Sequence record: NZ_CP041047.1
Strand: one strand, 5' to 3'
DNA length: 64,000 bases
DNA from: a plasmid
Positions 27,001-42,000 of the stretch are shown here, one piece after another. The stretch's first letter is position 1. The number at the start of each line of letters is the position of its first letter. The position numbers were made by a program.

Positions 27001-30000
27001 CAATTTCGGAGCAAGCCTCATCGAGAGTCATGCGTGTTCCATATTTACGCAACAGCTCATCAGTAACTATGTTCTTAGGGTCGTCGTTAACTAATACCGC
27101 AGGGATTTTGTGTGCTGGCATAAGCATTGCCCTGTTATGAGAACATTTAAGTGTCTTCATAAAACTCCCTTATCATAAATACGGACGGCATTACGATTAG
27201 TTTGCCATATGGGTAAAAATAAGAAGTTCAAAAATGGCAGCGTTTTGACTGTAAAAATCAAAAGTAATTTTCGTGTGCATCCGTTTTGTTTACATGTTTG
27301 AAATCAGCAAATACAAAAAAACCCAGTCCGAAGACTGGGTTTTTCAGTGTTAGCTAATTAAAAGAATTAGATGCTTTAAAGACCAAAGTTATCTTTGAAA
27401 TGACGTTGGTTTTTCCAGGATGAATTTTCAATCACACAGCATTCAAATACTGTATTCAGGTCGTCATCTGGAAATTTAAGGGCATCGTTGCCTATACGAA
27501 TGATGTTACCGATAAGTTCACGGGCTAGCTGAGAATTACGCAAGAAACGAGTAAAGAACTCATTGCTGATATGTTTGCCCAAGTTATAAGCAAATTCAAG
27601 CAACGTTGCATCGTTAGCAGTCAGCACCGCACCAGATTCAGATGCGAAATAAAAAACATTCTCTTGGCAGCCGAGGTTTTTCATTGCGCGGAGAAACAAC
27701 ATTTCTCCTTCCATATCCATAAGGCGTAGAATTATATCAATATCAGATTCATCGTTTACGACAGCACCGACAGCATCATAAAGTACGGCAGCGGGAGCTT
27801 GTTCAAACTCATCACGTTCGTAATTCATCAACATACGGTTTTGTGCGTTATTAAAGCTATCAATATGATCTGATTTAGCAGTAGTTGAAGTATACATGAG
27901 TGACTCCTTAGAAATTTTCTACCAGACAGTTTGTTCTTTCATGAAGTCAGCCTCATTCGCTATAAAGCGTTTTGCTTCATTCATCGCCGTATCGAAATGT
28001 TTATTACCCAACTTGCGTCCGAGATCAGTTATCTGTTCAACAAGAAGAGCACATTCAGGGTGAGTAAATCGTCCACCACCTTGGCAGTAAGTTAAACGAG
28101 TAACCAGCATTGATGCCTTCGACTCATTTTGTGTTACATGAAAGATGGTTTTGTGAGTTCCTATCCCTCGTTCGTTCAGAATATTAATGGTTTCCATATC
28201 GGCGAGTAGTAATCTTAAGTCCTGCAAATCTCTTTCAATCGAATGAGTTTGCAATGACATACCGCCTGAGACAAAACCATAGACATCCCCGGTTTCAGAA
28301 TAAAACATATATACCTCGATAAATTAAATTAATTAGAAGATACCCGGCTTACACCGTAATAGAGCATTAAAAATCTGCTCGCGAGCCTCAGAAGGATTTA
28401 CTTGTTTTGCAATCCCTTCAATCCACTCATCAACCGGTATTCGGGTAAATTGATGGTCTGTATTGCGAATCCTGATTGCAATGACAGCCCAGTGAGCGAG
28501 AGCATACTGAACATAATGCTTATCGCCTGGTGCAACCTCACCGCGTATTCTGGCGGTGCGGTTGTTATACTCTATCAACGCGCAGCCACTCATACAGACT
28601 CCAGTTATTAATTAATATAGTTAAAAGACAATTCCATCATCAATCGCCGTCAGGCTTTCAATTTTTGGAATATCGATGAAATTAAATCGCCGAACATTTT
28701 TCGCCGTAATAATCCGACCGTCATTAAGCTGAAGGGTCTCACTTTCTTTATCAGAACGTGATGGCCAGGCAGCGATAACTGAGTCTTCAGTGATTACATA
28801 ATGCCGACTATTTGATGTAAACAAAATGCATGGGATATCCATGAAATGAGACTCCAGACATTCAGTCTTTAAAATATTACCATTCTGTAGTGCCAATCCA
28901 TACATCATTAATATATGCATTGGCCCCAAACTCAACCCCGCGTGGCTGTATTTTATCCAGAATCTCGAACGTCCATCCTTCTTCAGGAGGCCATTGAAAA
29001 AGCAATGGTGCTCCATCCAAATATTTTATGGCAAGGACGCTATGACGAAGAGGATCGAGGATGCTAGTCTCACCGGGTATTGCTTTAACCCAATAATGAA
29101 TCACGATGTCACCTTTATTGATTTACAAGAGGAATAAATTGAGTTTGGGTCGTTATATCAGACATGAGTTCATATATCTTGTAGGGCCACCACTTTTTAT
29201 CCATATCACGTAAGAAATGAACCTCAGTGATATCGGGACACATTGGATGCCACAGGCTAATAACCATGAGCTCAGATGCCTCAACCTCAATGAACTGATT
29301 GATTGAAGTAACCCTGAACTCATTCGTGGCAATAAACCCTATTAGATCCTCCAACTGATTAAGCAAAAAACCCGCTTGTCGCTGTTCAGAGGAACTGTCG
29401 AAATCATGCTTTAAAATATTCATGTTAGTCTCCAGCGCGGAACGAAAAAAACGCTGACCGAAGTCAGCGTTTATATTTTTACAGAGGCTTATCCCTAATC
29501 GGCTTTGCAGCCTCTTTAGGATAAGTGTGATAAAACGCTTTTCTGTACTTTTCGTATCCAATACGTTGGGATGCAACATGTTCCATATTAGTGGGAGCAG
29601 TAAAGTGATGACGCGCAATCAGACTTGCTTGCTTAGCCAATTCACCAGACCACTCGTGCAGGATTTCCATTCGGGTTTCGAATGGGTCAAGACCTGCTAT
29701 TTTGCAGCAACTCGTAAATGAACAAAGGTCTTCCTGATTTTCTTCCGAACAAATCCAGAGGATTTCATCCACACGCTGCTCGCCAGTACTACGGTATGCA
29801 GTCATGATATATATGCTATCCCGAATTATCTCGTAAGCCATCTTTGATGAAAAACGAAGTTCATAATTATGTTCTGAATCGGCTGATATCAGATCATATT
29901 CACTTTCAGTGGCATCGAAAATACTCATGAATGAGAGTTGATTTTCGTGAACCACTTTAAATTTTGCGGTTGCAGACATAATGATCACCTTTAAAATAAA

Positions 30001-39000: not shown

Positions 39001-42000
39001 CAACAAGAGGAAAAACACCTTTTTCGACGGCGCAGAAAACACGATGCATGATGCACCGTGTGTCGAATTCTATGGGCGTAGGGAAGCCGTGCGAATGAAC
39101 ATATTCATTCAGGGATGGCGCGTTGCCGAAATAAAGAGTGTTAAAAGAAGTTAAGCGGTATGTCCGCGATATAAGATTATGATACGACGTTGGGTTGGTC
39201 AATCCAGAAAAGAAAAAAACCCAGCTTTCGCTGGGTTTTTGTTGGGAGGTATTAGCATAACAAGCGTTCCAGACGCTTCCATGTTTGGATTGCCATGTCG
39301 GTTGATGCATCTGATATCTCTTTATAGAGATTGGTATTTCGCCGTTCATAATAACCTGGATAGATGAGCCTATGCAGGCAATCATCTAACCTTGAAAGAT
39401 CTCCAAAGTCCTGAGCGCCTACATTGATTTTTGCCCTGATTGCCAGTATATCTCCCTCTATTTTCATGAGCTCAATGAGCTCATGCATTTCGAAGAAAAT
39501 ATTAGACTGATAACGACCAGCATGTTCTTCGCATTCGATGCTATCGCATACGTCACATACTTCAGCGTTACAGGAATGATAACCGCAGTGATTACACGTA
39601 TAAGAGAATCGCTGGTTTATCGCTCCTGCAACACAGTCTTCATAAATCCGATGTCGGCAGTCATTCCCACAATTTTCGCACTCTGCAATCATTGTGTAAT
39701 CATCCAGTTCCATACCACCCGGCTCAATGCTACTACCATAGACAATTGTCATAATATACCTCATATATTTAAAAGATTAAAAAGTTAAGGCTTATAGCCT
39801 GAGTTAAGAATATTTTAGCTTTCGGCGAGTACTTGCATAACCCAAATGCCGCGACGTTTTTCGCTCAAAAGATTACGATACCCTGTAACCTTACCGCCTT
39901 CGTCAAAAACTTGTGCTTTGTCGGTTCTCACTTCAGACTCTTTCCAGACTGAAACGATATCCCCAACTTGTGCCCCACAAGTCGCAACAGCACTTTTGAG
40001 CCCAATTGCCCAAATTTCATGGTCTTTCCCACCACTACGAATTGTGACTAAATACGTTTTATCGTTATTAGGATCGTGTTTCCAGTTTTCGAGACCGTGG
40101 TAAACAAGTTTTCCTTCATAACGATGGTTCGTATATTTGGCTTTGTCATTATTTGCCCCACCCTGAGAAGAACCTTCAACAATGTTTCCATTAGTTGATT
40201 CATTAGATTTTTTCCCAGACTTGGTAAAGAATGAATTATAAATAACCAGTAAAGCAACCACCACACACACAGTCGCAGTAACAAAACCGAGACCAGTGAA
40301 TAGTAAACCGCGTTCCGTTATAAAAATTGCCAGCCAGATTGGGCCAAGGAATCTGATATATTCAGCACGGTAATACACAGCACCAAAAAATACGATACCT
40401 GCCATTAATGAGATTGGGTCAGACATAGATCACCTATAAATTTAGAATGCGAAAATTTAGCCACCTAAAAGGTAAACTAAACGGATGTACACAAGAATGC
40501 ACACCTGTTGATTTCGCTGGAGTTAAAAGGATTAACAATTTTTTTTGTTTGGGATTGAGAACCAAAATACCCGTTTGGGTAAGCAAAGAGACATGTCAGG
40601 TTTAACCTAAACACATCAGAGATGCTCGGGCCTGTAGGAGGCGTAGTTAACCCGGGAGGAGGTCATCCGGTGGGCGCTGGTAGAGCGCGAAATTAACTAG
40701 GAAGTTGTGCTGATGTCCGTCAGCTCGGTTCTTATTCATTTAAGCATAATTGTTTATTTTTTCAAGTCAGTTTTTCATGGTCATATTGCAGCCATTTTTC
40801 AATGACAACTATCCTGAGTTTTGGCCTAATCAATTGGCATACAAATTAACTCCGAGGTTCTGTTATGGCTAAAGCACCGGTACAAACCGTAAAACAAGCT
40901 AAAAAGAGTGGGGCTCAGGATAACCGAACCCCTAACACCCGTGTCGAATATTCCAATCCTGAAGCTGTCGTGAAATTTACTCTTCACACACAGGAAGGTA
41001 TTCGTGTCCAGTCCCGAAATTTTAACATTATCTCCCAGGCGCTCTTCAATCTGACCAATAACAGCCGAGCCCTTGAACGGCTTGGCGCTAAATACAGTGG
41101 TGCAATTGAACGTACACTGAAGGCAGTTAACGAAGTAATCGACATGCCTGAGAAAGAACTGGAAAATAACATTGCTATTCTGAACCGTGCGGTAAAAGAA
41201 GAAGAAGAACGCAGCAGCCTCAATGAAGTCGGGTACACCCATCCAAAAGAACATGAGGTTCGCATCAGAACGCCGCAAGCAATGCGGGTTATCCGCATTA
41301 TTCAGAACTTTGATAAATTGCACCAGATCATCGATACCCTCTGGTTAAATAACTGTTTTAATCAGGATGAGGTCGAAGAGTTTAAGTCTCGTCTTCATAA
41401 TCTCATTCGTGATCTGGCTGCATCACTCAAACGTCACGCGCAGGCATCTGCTGATGAGCTTAATCAGGCCAATGGCCGGGCCGCTGAAAAAGAATTGGCT
41501 GGAAGCACTGAGACAGAACCTACCCAGGTAGACCAGGATACACCGGTGTTGCAGGATGCCAGTAATGAAGCGAATGATGATCAGAATGAGGCCATTAAAC
41601 GGCAGGCTTAATTCAACGAAAAACAAAAATTAAAAACCCTGCATCGCAGGGTTTTTTTATTACATTGTGCGGCAACAATCTACCCACTGGAAAATCATGT
41701 AGGTACTGTCCTGGCCTTTACCGGTTGGATAGCGGAAAGGCCCACCTTGCCATTGGTATGGGGACTCACCGACCTCATGACTGTTTTTTGTCTCCGGGGT
41801 AGGGTAGAACATATTCAATTTGTACTGCTGCTTTGGCAACGTTGGGTAAATCTTGGAGCGACAAACAGTATCGTTTCCCATCGAACGGTAGGCCAGTCCG
41901 CGCCGATGTTCTGCGGCCAGCATACGGATCCCGACCAGGCTGGTTGTTCTGGGGGCATCCATACTCCGTACCGAACCAGTTAAAGGATACTGCCCACCCC

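What the first reader, a model, noticed from the sequence alone, without database searches (positions are those of the whole stretch)
29980..39764. Cassette-like array: each gene has its own hairpin terminator, AT-rich 'TAACTTTCT(A/T)AATT' box and near-invariant SD/start
In the 30-39.8 kb block every gene is separated by 45-90 nt containing three elements:
- A rho-independent hairpin terminating the upstream gene, for most junctions (e.g. 31988, 33402, 38080, 39215, 39780); none is evident at 29981-30043, 34516-34572 or 36431-36488.
- An AT-rich box: taactttctaaatt at 30008 and 36455, taactttcttaattt at 38905, ttaactttttaatc at 39776, and variants at 31970, 33390 and 34540.
- A strongly conserved extended SD plus start: AATGAGGTATAT(C)ATG before four genes, and AAGGTGATCATTATGTCTG shared exactly by the exo gene and 29479..29980.

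Such one-gene, one-promoter, one-terminator modularity with reused translation-initiation cassettes suggests gene-by-gene acquisition or shuffling, or a dedicated regulator recognising the AT-rich box. The ORF predictor is misled by the in-frame ATG inside the SD, which gives the 'MRYIMT' artefact.
Basis: seen in the sequence. Interest (0 to 1): 0.55.

Follow-up and report, generated by a model that had tools for sequence, protein, structure and literature searches.

The report
Repeated translation-start spacers in plasmid operon
The repeated hairpin, AT-rich box and ribosome-site spacers are real and under selection, but they punctuate an old, conserved plasmid operon with only three promoter regions; they are not mobile cassettes with one promoter per gene.

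Summary
Two junctions, however, are about 370 nt, not 45-90 nt.

The block is the ssb-recT-exo-ATPase-DUF3150-VWA module of a MOBH plasmid related to IncA/C and IncT. Gene order is the same in four diverged lineages, so cassette-wise acquisition is not supported.

The AT-rich box always abuts the Shine-Dalgarno (SD) site. This holds behind a hairpin, behind a 230-nt leader, or directly after a stop codon. In relatives it is a lineage-specific array of UAAAU-type 9-nt units ending 11-15 nt before the ATG. It is strand-specific and confined to this module. Spacers diverge at 3.8% against 8.4% at third codon positions.

No sigma70-like promoter lies in the short spacers. Conserved TTGACC-17-TAnnnT promoters lie only in the two long junctions. 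Each is followed by an unannotated structured leader with an internal terminator.

Best reading: a multi-promoter operon whose cistrons are separated by partial terminators or stabiliser hairpins plus AU-rich translation-initiation leaders. A dedicated box-binding regulator remains possible.

The parts
40427..40447 (-). AU-rich box plus SD (ttctaaatttatAGGTGATCT) in front of hyp203 (39815-40426), the first gene of the module, divergent from acaB
39788..39800 (-). Weak 5-bp hairpin after hyp203
39753..39788 (-). Box TTAACTTTTTAATCTTTTAAATATAT plus SD GAGGTATATT in front of hyp166 (39252-39752)
39215..39240 (-). Strong terminator-like hairpin (11 bp plus U-run) ending transcription unit 1 (hyp203-hyp166)
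   Evidence: conserved in all lineages
39174..39202 (-). Promoter P1: TTGACC, 17 nt, TAATCT. The hexamers are conserved in 4-5 lineages and the spacer is not
38960..39172 (-). Structured leader or sRNA-like element, copy 1 (IG1). It holds an internal terminator-like hairpin plus U-run at 39034-39062
38885..38921 (-). Box TAACTTTCTTAATTTAAAAATTTAT plus SD GAGGTATAAACT in front of ssb (38120-38884)
38091..38112 (-). Hairpin after ssb (9 bp, tail UUCUUCUUUUU)
38046..38085 (-). AU-rich box plus SD TAATGAGGTATAT in front of recT (36489-38045)
36466..36483 (-).
36432..36463 (-). Box TAACTTTCTAAATTTATCTT plus extended SD AAGGTGATCATT in front of exo (35322-36431)
35294..35316 (-). Strong terminator-like hairpin (10 bp plus U9) ending unit 2 (ssb-recT-exo)
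35256..35284 (-). Promoter P2: TTGACC, 17 nt, TATCTT
35037..35254 (-). Structured leader or sRNA-like element, copy 2 (IG2). Internal terminator-like hairpin plus U6 at 35095-35128
   Evidence: 1.6% divergence against 8.4% at codon position 3
34951..34990 (-). AU-rich box plus SD GAGGAGTCTGATC in front of hyp125 (34573-34950)
34516..34572 (-). Spacer without a hairpin (in every lineage): AU-rich box plus TAATGAGGTATATC in front of the AAA/MoxR ATPase (33436-34515)
33418..33437 (-). Terminator-like hairpin after the ATPase gene
33377..33417 (-). AU-rich box plus TAATGAGGTATGTC in front of DUF3150 (32021-33376)
31994..32016 (-). Terminator-like hairpin after DUF3150 (10 bp, A-run and U-run on either side)
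31957..31993 (-). AU-rich box plus TTGTGAGGTATAT in front of the VWA gene (30043-31956)
29980..30022 (-). Box TTTTAACTTTCTAAATTAATTTAATTTATTTT plus AAAGGTGATCATT in front of hyp166b (29479-29979); no hairpin
29449..29472 (-). Strong terminator-like hairpin after hyp166b
28309..28332 (-). 24-nt spacer made only of box plus SD (ttaatttaatttatcGAGGTATAT) in front of the 27919-28308 gene

Best explanation
The block is the conserved recombination and host-defence-evasion-type module (ssb, recT, exo, AAA ATPase, DUF3150, VWA and small genes) of a MOBH conjugative plasmid of the IncA/C-like / IncT kinship.

It is read as about three co-directional transcription units, not one per gene:
- a promoter in the acaB-hyp203 region drives hyp203-hyp166;
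- a strong terminator is followed by P1 plus leader, driving ssb-recT-exo;
- a strong terminator is followed by P2 plus leader, driving hyp125 through hyp166b and beyond.

Inside the units the cistrons are separated by 24-74-nt spacers. Each spacer holds up to three elements:
- at most junctions, a GC-rich stem-loop with a U-rich tail. I infer it acts as a leaky intrinsic terminator and/or a 3'-end stabiliser that grades expression along the operon;
- an AU-rich stretch of UAAAU / TTAACTT-type units that is transcribed and abuts
- a strong SD (GAGGTAT or AGGTGATC).

I infer that the AU-rich box works in the mRNA as part of the translation-initiation region. It would serve as a ribosome standby or S1-type enhancer, possibly doubling as an operator, so that each cistron is initiated independently downstream of a stable hairpin. 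It is not a promoter and not a cassette boundary.

Shown: anatomy, conservation, strand bias, module specificity, purifying selection, synteny and position of promoters.
Inferred: termination efficiency, and the translational role of the box.
For: - The box position is tied to the SD in every context: after a hairpin, after the 230-nt leader (ssb, hyp125), at the first gene (hyp203), and in a 24-nt spacer.
- In the IncT relative, Tandem Repeats Finder (TRF) finds arrays of 9-10-nt units (TCTATTAAA, up to 6.6 copies). They end 11-15 nt before seven ATGs.
- TAAAT occurs 19-27 times per lineage against 2.4-4.5 in shuffles, reached by 0/1000. In four lineages it is 3-4 times commoner than its complement.
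- TAACTT occurs 26 times in intergenic sense strand and 0 times antisense across five lineages.
- The box is module-specific. TAAATNTAT occurs nowhere outside 26-41 kb of the window, and none of 72 genes in the first 50 kb of the IncT plasmid has it.
- Short spacers diverge 3.8% against 8.4% at codon position 3 (p=4.5e-6).
- Hairpin presence or absence is junction-specific and conserved while the hairpin sequence turns over.
- There are no promoter-like sites in the short spacers. Conserved TTGACC-17-TAnnnT occurs only in the long junctions.
- The homologous IncC operon is polycistronic by RT-PCR, and an RBS-sequestering structure is reported there (PMC7498323). The SXT s089 operon has a single SetCD promoter (PMC4344509).
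Against: - There are no transcript data for this plasmid clade.
- Predicted accessibility of the box and translation-initiation region (TIR) is not significantly higher than for other genes of the window (0.56 against 0.51, p=0.08; SD and start show no difference).
- A generic AU-rich enhancer does not by itself explain why each lineage keeps its own near-identical 9-15-nt consensus at about ten junctions.
- Three or four strong hairpins with U-runs inside unit 3 would starve distal genes unless read-through is high or is actively promoted.
- In the window itself TAAAT is not strand-biased (11 against 13).
Confidence: 0.55

Rival explanations
1. The box is a translational operator for a protein encoded in the module, most plausibly its own single-strand-binding protein (or RecT). 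This would work like T4 gene 32. A structured element nucleates cooperative binding over an unstructured stretch of UUAAA/UAAA repeats that covers the ribosome site. Free protein would shut the whole module down, and incoming single-stranded DNA would titrate it away.
For: - The architecture matches the described gp32 operator: a folded 5' element followed by a stretch of more than 40 nt with UUAAA/UAAA repeats and the RBS (PMC535899).
- Here the spacers are hairpin, then UAAAU/UUAAA arrays, then SD.
- The consensus is lineage-specific, as expected for co-evolution with a protein.
- The box is restricted to the module that encodes an atypical SSB without an acidic tail, plus RecT.
Against: - No binding data exist.
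- Junctions without a hairpin also carry the box.
- The accessibility test is inconclusive.
- No RNA-binding domain was found in the small proteins.
- AT-rich motifs resemble one another easily.
Confidence: 0.15
2. Each AT box is a promoter or operator read by host RNA polymerase with a plasmid-specific factor, and each hairpin is an efficient terminator, giving monocistronic units.
For: - Strong canonical hairpins with U-runs occur at many junctions.
- The motif is conserved, oriented and module-specific.
- TATAAAT-like cores occur in the K. oxytoca and IncT lineages.
- AcaB, encoded next door, is described as similar to ribbon-helix-helix proteins (PMC8373056). From my own knowledge, that class often binds tandem short repeats.
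Against: - The arrays end 11-15 nt from the ATG, touching the SD.
- There is no -35 and no extended -10, and no promoter-like hit in the short spacers.
- The box is also present downstream of bona fide promoter-plus-leader regions and inside a 24-nt spacer.
- The IncC homologue is polycistronic.
- Some junctions have no hairpin in any lineage.
Confidence: 0.12
3. The boxes act in DNA as nucleation sites for H-NS-type silencing proteins, host or plasmid-borne, keeping the module off until an activator counteracts them.
For: - Spacers are 62-88% A+T between 42-46% GC genes.
- Cores such as ATATAAATT resemble the H-NS high-affinity motif TCGATAAATT (own knowledge).
- IncA/C-type plasmids carry an H-NS-like repressor (own knowledge).
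Against: - Strict strand asymmetry (TAACTT 26:0, CTAT 38:1 summed over the five lineages).
- A fixed position against the SD is not expected for an orientation-independent DNA-binding protein.
Confidence: 0.08
4. The repeated spacers are kept as short direct repeats for the module's own RecT/Exo single-strand-annealing repair, so that a cut gene can be deleted cleanly with a working junction restored.
For: - In IncC, Bet/Exo repairs CRISPR cuts by annealing conserved intergenic repeats as short as 7 bp. The authors suggest Bet/Exo systems co-evolved with their repeats (PMC7498323).
- Exact 18-19-nt direct repeats link junctions here.
- The K. oxytoca leader copies are identical over about 250 nt.
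Against: - Gene content is almost invariant in 79 of 82 close relatives.
- The one truncated module examined was cut by IS1, not at a repeat.
- The Providencia/Moellerella gene difference has endpoints outside the box.
- This model does not explain the fixed position against the SD.
Confidence: 0.05
5. Cassette-wise acquisition or shuffling of independent gene units.
For: - There are repeated junction sequences.
- A few lineage-specific extra genes sit at junctions: x1/x2 in K. oxytoca and IncT, and one 282-bp gene in Providencia.
- The ATPase gene sits at a different place in IncC.
Against: - The ten-gene order is conserved over about 30% nucleotide divergence.
- GC content is uniform.
- SD types are conserved between orthologues.
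- No recombinase and no attC-like sites are present.
Confidence: 0.02

Closest known systems
hde (host defence evasion) operon of IncC plasmids / s089 operon of SXT-R391 elements
   Same: - Same neighbourhood: between traU/acaB and traF.
- Same core genes: SSB, RecT-family annealing protein, YqaJ exonuclease, AAA ATPase, DUF3150, VWA.
- Cistrons are spaced by about 60-100 nt of conserved non-coding sequence, with repeated longer intergenic elements.
   Different: - IncC spacers are GC-rich paired hairpins without an AT box.
- The ATPase gene lies upstream of ssb in IncC.
- IncC sub-promoters and rpt repeats are unrelated in sequence to the TTGACC promoter-plus-leader found here.
- Protein identity is only 24-35%.
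Translational operator of bacteriophage T4 gene 32 mRNA
   Same: A folded element is followed by an AU-rich stretch with UUAAA/UAAA repeats that includes the ribosome-binding site. [quoted passage not shown]
   Different: - Here the arrangement occurs at about 11 cistrons, not one.
- The folded element is a simple hairpin, not a pseudoknot.
- Units are 9-nt in relatives.
- No evidence of protein binding exists.
AU-rich translational enhancers upstream of the SD, e.g. the T7 gene 10 'epsilon' UUAACUUUA(A)
   Same: - TTAACTTT(C/T) sits 13-24 nt upstream of the SD of exo, ssb, hyp166 and hyp166b.
- TTAACTCTA units occur in IncT arrays.
- The epsilon motif is quoted in PMC9590205.
   Different: - Matches to epsilon are not enriched over the whole window (25 against 18.8).
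- The commonest unit is TTAAATMTAT, not epsilon.
- Tandem arrays are not a described feature of epsilon.
Internal attenuator or stabiliser hairpins of long polycistronic operons (general class; own knowledge)
   Same: GC-rich stem-loops sit between cistrons and are followed by AU-rich sequence. Their presence is conserved while their sequence turns over.
   Different: Most here carry full U-runs like true terminators, and they are combined with a module-wide repeated leader sequence.
Integron gene cassettes
   Same: Superficially similar: same-strand genes each followed by an imperfect palindrome.
   Different: There is no integrase and no attC cores. Gene order is fixed, and the palindromes are terminator-like hairpins.

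Membership tests
hde-type recombination module of IncA/C-SXT-IncT MOBH elements | SSB plus RecT-family annealing protein plus YqaJ/lambda-type exonuclease encoded together | tested here: met
   Pfam hits: SSB (weak, E=3.6e-5), RecT 2.2e-20, YqaJ 4.9e-19. 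The exonuclease is 32% identical to IncC Exo.
hde-type recombination module of IncA/C-SXT-IncT MOBH elements | Location between traU/acaB and traF-H-G, with AAA ATPase, DUF3150 and VWA genes | tested here: met
   Annotation of a 100% identical record; the same layout in IncT, Providencia, Moellerella and K. oxytoca plasmids and in IncC.
hde-type recombination module of IncA/C-SXT-IncT MOBH elements | Protects the incoming plasmid from restriction or CRISPR | not testable with these tools
   Shown only for IncC/R391 (PMC7498323). Rts1 bet and exo mutants conjugate 10-100 times less well (PMC10838148).
Intrinsic (Rho-independent) terminators | GC-rich stem-loop followed by a U-run, on the sense strand just after a stop codon | tested here: met
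   Eight minus-strand sites in or next to the block. Energies are -10.7 to -16.8 kcal/mol, with 4-7 U in the 8-nt tail.
Intrinsic (Rho-independent) terminators | Actually stops RNA polymerase | not testable with these tools
   Needs Term-seq or in vitro transcription.
Sigma70 promoter in every spacer (one gene, one promoter) | -35 and -10 hexamers at 16-18 nt spacing, or an extended -10, far enough upstream to leave the SD in the transcript | tested here: not met
   No hit in any short spacer. The arrays end 11-15 nt from the ATG. Hits exist only at 35256-35284 and, by conservation, at 39174-39202.
Mobile gene cassettes (integron-like) | Gene content and order vary between relatives at the repeat boundaries; a dedicated recombinase and attC sites are present | tested here: not met
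   Order is conserved in five lineages. 79 of 82 close records keep at least 80% of the block. No recombinase lies in the block.
T4 gene 32-type translational operator | Structured element followed by an AU-rich region with UUAAA/UAAA repeats overlapping the RBS | tested here: met
   definition from PMC535899.
T4 gene 32-type translational operator | The AU-rich region is intrinsically unstructured | tested here: inconclusive
   Mean unpaired probability is 0.56 against 0.51 for other genes, p=0.08.
T4 gene 32-type translational operator | Cooperative binding and repression by the cognate single-strand-binding protein | not testable with these tools
T7 g10 epsilon-type enhancer | UUAACUUUA-like sequence a short distance 5' of the SD | tested here: inconclusive
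   Two module translation-start leaders match 8/9 (TTAACTTTC at 30014, TTAACTTTT at 39780) and TTAAATTTA lies before the VWA gene. Window-wide counts are not above chance. TAACTT is strongly sense-specific in spacers.
Any curated RNA family (for the two leaders) | Match to an Rfam covariance model | tested here: not met
   No hit at gathering scores in the window. Only terminator-type noise appears at E up to 10 in IG2.

The most novel reading that the evidence does not exclude
The module carries two linked, undescribed RNA-level controls.
- A module-wide translational operator made of UAAAU-type 9-nt repeats at about 11 ribosome sites. It would be read by the module's own single-strand-binding or annealing protein, so that the anti-defence and recombination genes are translated only while the plasmid is single-stranded after entry.
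- A new 135-170-nt structured RNA placed directly behind each internal sigma70 promoter. It would either gate read-through into ssb and hyp125 or make RNA polymerase resistant to the many downstream terminators.
Probability: 0.15. Interest if true: 0.75.

Novelty: new variant of a known kind. Interest (0 to 1): 0.45.

Why it matters
The module is the counterpart of the IncC/SXT 'hde' operon, which lets multidrug-resistance plasmids survive restriction and CRISPR on entry. The Rts1 recT and exo homologues are needed for efficient conjugation.

How such genes are switched on quickly and then kept low is not known for the IncT / IncA/C-like plasmids that spread carbapenemases in Citrobacter, Klebsiella, Providencia and Proteus.

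A conserved, module-specific signal at every ribosome site, plus two copies of an unannotated structured leader behind conserved promoters, give concrete testable handles on that control.

On the practical side, the result warns annotators about false N-terminal extensions (MRYIMT) and about spurious ORFs called inside the leaders.

Tried and rejected
- Frpo-like single-strand promoter for the long junctions. The DNA folds leave the TTGACC/-10 region unpaired and there is no inverted copy of it. Rejected.
- Leader peptide attenuation. No conserved ATG or ORF is present in the leaders (read). Rejected.
- Conserved antiterminator alternative to the leader terminator. None was found; all lineages fold as five small hairpins plus a terminator.
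- RfaH ops element in the leaders. Not conserved (read).
- Rfam. Nothing found.
- Wider distribution of the leader. One scan of 185,579 species genomes with AATTCGAY-N25-50-CGTCGAANNGGTGTTT gave one true hit (Morganella) and nine in unrelated phyla that are probably chance matches. BLAST finds the leader in 119 plasmid records of this clade only. nhmmer finds exactly two copies per plasmid, and none in IncC or in the first 50 kb of the IncT plasmid.
- Accessibility of the translation-start regions. No significant difference from other genes. My by-eye impression that IncC spacers sequester the SD or start was not borne out by ensemble unpaired probabilities, although the IncC authors predict such a structure for vcrx089.
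- Candidate regulator among the small proteins. There were no Pfam or PHROG hits. The Cys-rich hyp166 has few homologues and gave a poor AlphaFold model (pLDDT 62, pTM 0.40), so no fold search was run.
- Natural repeat-mediated deletion. The one truncated relative examined was cut by IS1.
- Papers not held: Garriss et al. 2013 and Murata et al. 2002.

Full report
**What the window is.**
- The 11-kb block is 100% identical to large (208-412 kb) MOBH plasmids of Citrobacter, Klebsiella, Enterobacter and E. coli.
- Annotation of an identical record shows all genes of the block on the window's minus strand. They lie between traU/acaB and traF-traH-traG.
- Gene order and coordinates:
  - acaB (40865-41611, plus strand)
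  - hyp203 (39815-40426)
  - hyp166 (39252-39752)
  - ssb (38120-38884)
  - recT (36489-38045)
  - exo (35322-36431)
  - hyp125 (34573-34950)
  - AAA/MoxR ATPase (33436-34515)
  - DUF3150 (32021-33376)
  - VWA (30043-31956)
  - hyp166b (29479-29979)
  - six small genes reaching down to 27376
- Pfam confirms RecT, YqaJ, AAA_5, DUF3150, VWA and AcaB, and gives a weak SSB match.
- This is the counterpart of the IncC 'hde' operon and the SXT s089 operon.

**Check of the observation.**
- The quoted strings are present and exceed chance. TAACTTTYTWAAT gives 7 hits against 0.5 expected. TTCTWAATT gives 7 against 1.8. TGAGGTATAT-like sequence precedes seven genes. AAGGTGATCAT precedes exo, hyp166b and traN.
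- Terminator-like hairpins are enriched in 28-42 kb (26 against 12.7 in shuffles).
- Additional hairpins lie at 36466-36483, 35294-35316 and 29449-29472.
- The 'MRYIMT' artefact is real. The ATG of TAATGAGGTAT is in frame, 12 nt upstream of the annotated start, in three genes.
- The statement that every junction is 45-90 nt is wrong. 34951-35321 and 38885-39251 are 371 and 367 nt, and they are homologous to each other.

**Not cassettes.**
- BLAST at low stringency found relatives at 67-69% nucleotide identity.
- I read four of them: Providencia pPROV013-PER, Moellerella pW18-2-a, a K. oxytoca 170-kb plasmid and an IncT (Rts1-type) plasmid. I also read a second Providencia plasmid and IncC pVCR94.
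- The ten-gene order from hyp203 to hyp166b is the same in all non-IncC lineages. The two long junctions are in the same places.
- Differences are limited to one or two extra small genes.
- GC content is even across the block, at 0.41-0.45.
- SD types are conserved between orthologues. Exo and hyp166b have AGGTGATC in three lineages, hyp125 has AGGAGTC, and the first small gene has TGGAG. The shared strings are therefore old, not a recent duplication.
- In IncC the homologous genes were shown by RT-PCR to lie on one transcript (PMC7498323). In SXT the operon has one SetCD promoter (PMC4344509).

**Anatomy of the box.**
- Aligned on the SD, each lineage shows its own consensus immediately 5' of the SD:
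  - window: TTCTAAATT..AATTTAAT-GAGGTATAT
  - Providencia/Moellerella: TTTTAAATCTATTAA-GAGGTA
  - K. oxytoca: TAAATATATAAATYTAT-RAGGT
  - IncT: CTATTAAATATATAAAYTTAT
- In IncT, Tandem Repeats Finder reports arrays of 9-10-nt units. TCTATTAAA reaches 6.6 copies, TATTAACTC 4.9 copies and ATTAAATCAT 3.8 copies. The arrays end 11-15 nt before seven start codons.
- TAAAT occurs 19-27 times in the -50..-8 segments of each relative, against 2.4-4.5 in shuffles (0/1000 reach it). It is 3-4 times commoner than ATTTA. In the window it is enriched (11 against 2.4) but not strand-biased.
- TAACTT occurs 26 times in the sense strand of the spacers of five lineages and never in the antisense strand.
- The box is found in front of 11 genes whatever lies upstream: a hairpin, the long leader, the divergent promoter region, or a stop codon 24 nt away.
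- It is absent from the rest of the window. It is also absent from all 72 genes in the first 50 kb of the IncT plasmid.

**Selection.**
- I compared the window with pCAV1857-208.
- Third codon positions differ at 8.4% and positions 1+2 at 2.5%.
- The short spacers differ at 3.8% (23/607, p=4.5e-6 against the position-3 rate).
- IG1 differs at 3.5%, IG2 at 1.6% (p=2e-8) and the acaB-hyp203 region at 2.5%.
- Hairpins are kept or absent junction by junction in all lineages while their sequences differ. None follows hyp125. Strong ones follow hyp166, exo, the ATPase, DUF3150 and hyp166b.

**Where the promoters are.**
- The scan finds no sigma70-like site in any short spacer, and fewer sites overall than in shuffles.
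- In the alignment of both long junctions from four lineages, TTGACC is invariant. It is followed by 17 non-conserved bases and then TAnnnT (TATCTT, TATTGT, TAATCT, TACTCT). It lies immediately after the strongest terminators.
- This is the signature of a real promoter. It was seen only at 39174-39202 and 35256-35284.

**The leaders.**
- Downstream of each promoter lies a conserved element of about 215 nt.
- It folds far better than shuffles (z=-5.7 and -5.9).
- RNAalifold gives five helices. 92.7% of cells are paired and 12 pairs have changes on both sides. No shuffle of 500 reaches the observed covariation, and slid controls fall to 35-56% paired. Only about five lineages are independent, so this is supportive rather than conclusive.
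- From the presumed start it forms five small hairpins and then a GC-rich hairpin with a U-run. No conserved alternative pairing was found.
- Conservation continues for about 70 nt past that terminator.
- It has no Rfam match.
- It occurs exactly twice per plasmid and only in this clade.
- In the K. oxytoca plasmid the two copies are identical, which indicates gene conversion.
- It could be a small RNA whose read-through feeds ssb and hyp125, a regulated attenuator, or an element that modifies RNA polymerase. I could not decide between these.

**Mechanism.**
- The data fit a multi-promoter operon best.
- The hairpins would act as leaky terminators and/or 3' stabilisers.
- The AU-rich box would be part of the mRNA's translation-initiation region.
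- That AU-rich leaders bind ribosomal protein S1 and enhance initiation is established knowledge (own knowledge).
- The T7 gene 10 epsilon UUAACUUUA(A) is one example (PMC9590205). The TTAACTTT strings resemble it, but window-wide the resemblance is not above chance.
- The lineage-specific consensus and tandem 9-mers argue for a specific partner.
- The closest precedent is the T4 gene 32 operator: a folded element plus UUAAA/UAAA repeats over the RBS, bound cooperatively by the phage SSB (PMC535899). The module encodes an atypical SSB lacking the acidic tail.
- This remains a hypothesis. The accessibility test was inconclusive and no candidate RNA-binding domain was found.
- DNA-level readings are less likely because of the strand bias and the fixed position against the SD. 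These readings are one promoter per gene, H-NS nucleation, and repeats for RecT/Exo annealing repair as in IncC.

**Verdict.**
- The main interpretation, modular cassettes each with its own promoter, is not supported.
- What is there is a variant of known operon punctuation with an unusually uniform, module-specific translation-start leader.
- In addition there are two copies of an undescribed structured leader behind conserved promoters.

Noticed in passing
window 34951-35321 and 38885-39251 (minus strand): Two homologous junctions of about 370 nt. Each has a strong terminator, then a conserved TTGACC-17-TAnnnT promoter, then a structured leader of about 215 nt with an internal terminator-like hairpin. 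There is no Rfam match, and the element occurs twice per plasmid in every lineage of the clade.
   Followed up: yes
window 1-9000 (minus strand), e.g. 1627-1710, 3491-3570, 4555-4640, 8878-8920: A different repeated upstream module precedes at least five small genes. It consists of a hairpin, then CTTCGTCACCTGAAT-like sequence, then TAAGTAAACAAAACGAACA, then a segment complementary to the SD region. Its core resembles the IncC rptI-type intergenic repeats. It is probably another regulon.
   Followed up: no
window 12473-12940: Three to four copies of a repeat spaced about 157 nt apart (TACGCCAGAACCCTACGTTTCTGG and others) lie upstream of mobI. They may be oriT- or iteron-like.
   Followed up: no
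window 10122-10188 and 10272-10338: A 67-nt direct repeat, 90% identical, with copies 150 nt apart.
   Followed up: no
window about 49600-50900: An insertion of about 1.2 kb interrupts the YadA-like gene relative to otherwise identical plasmids. Its ORF sequence looked to me like an IS3-family transposase (not tested). As a result, annotated coordinates transferred from NZ_CP102104.1 are shifted above about 48.1 kb.
   Followed up: partly
window 38120-38884 (minus strand): The module's SSB has only a weak OB-fold match (Pfam E=3.6e-5, PDB E about 2e-3). It ends in ...AYSSVRG without the acidic C-terminal tip typical of bacterial SSBs.
   Followed up: partly
window 39252-39752 (minus strand): hyp166 has nine invariant cysteines and two histidines in its N-terminal half, consistent with a likely zinc-binding domain. 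Very few homologues exist. The AlphaFold model was too poor to search with.
   Followed up: partly
L012 4866-5231 (IncT LL128_RS00595); L007 3352-3564 (MNY64_RS17500); L011 4854-5015 (M1E98_RS21235): These hypothetical ORFs annotated in relatives lie inside the IG1 junction (LL128_RS00595 overlaps the leader copy itself) and are probably spurious.
   Followed up: partly
L010 3331-3580 and 7916-8165 (K. oxytoca plasmid): The two leader copies are identical over about 250 nt. In other lineages they are only about 60% alike. This indicates recent gene conversion within one plasmid.
   Followed up: partly
L009 (IncC pVCR94), spacers between 6032 and 18605: The IncC spacers of the homologous operon have their own uniform design: ACCC, then one or two GC-rich hairpins. 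Upstream strings such as CATGGTG appear complementary to the CACCATG start region. Ensemble folding did not clearly confirm sequestration.
   Followed up: partly
L024 (IncT plasmid, 1-50000): Many genes there have poly-G SD-like strings (ccggggggt) and a recurring TTCGACC motif upstream. This is a different upstream signature from the module's box.
   Followed up: no
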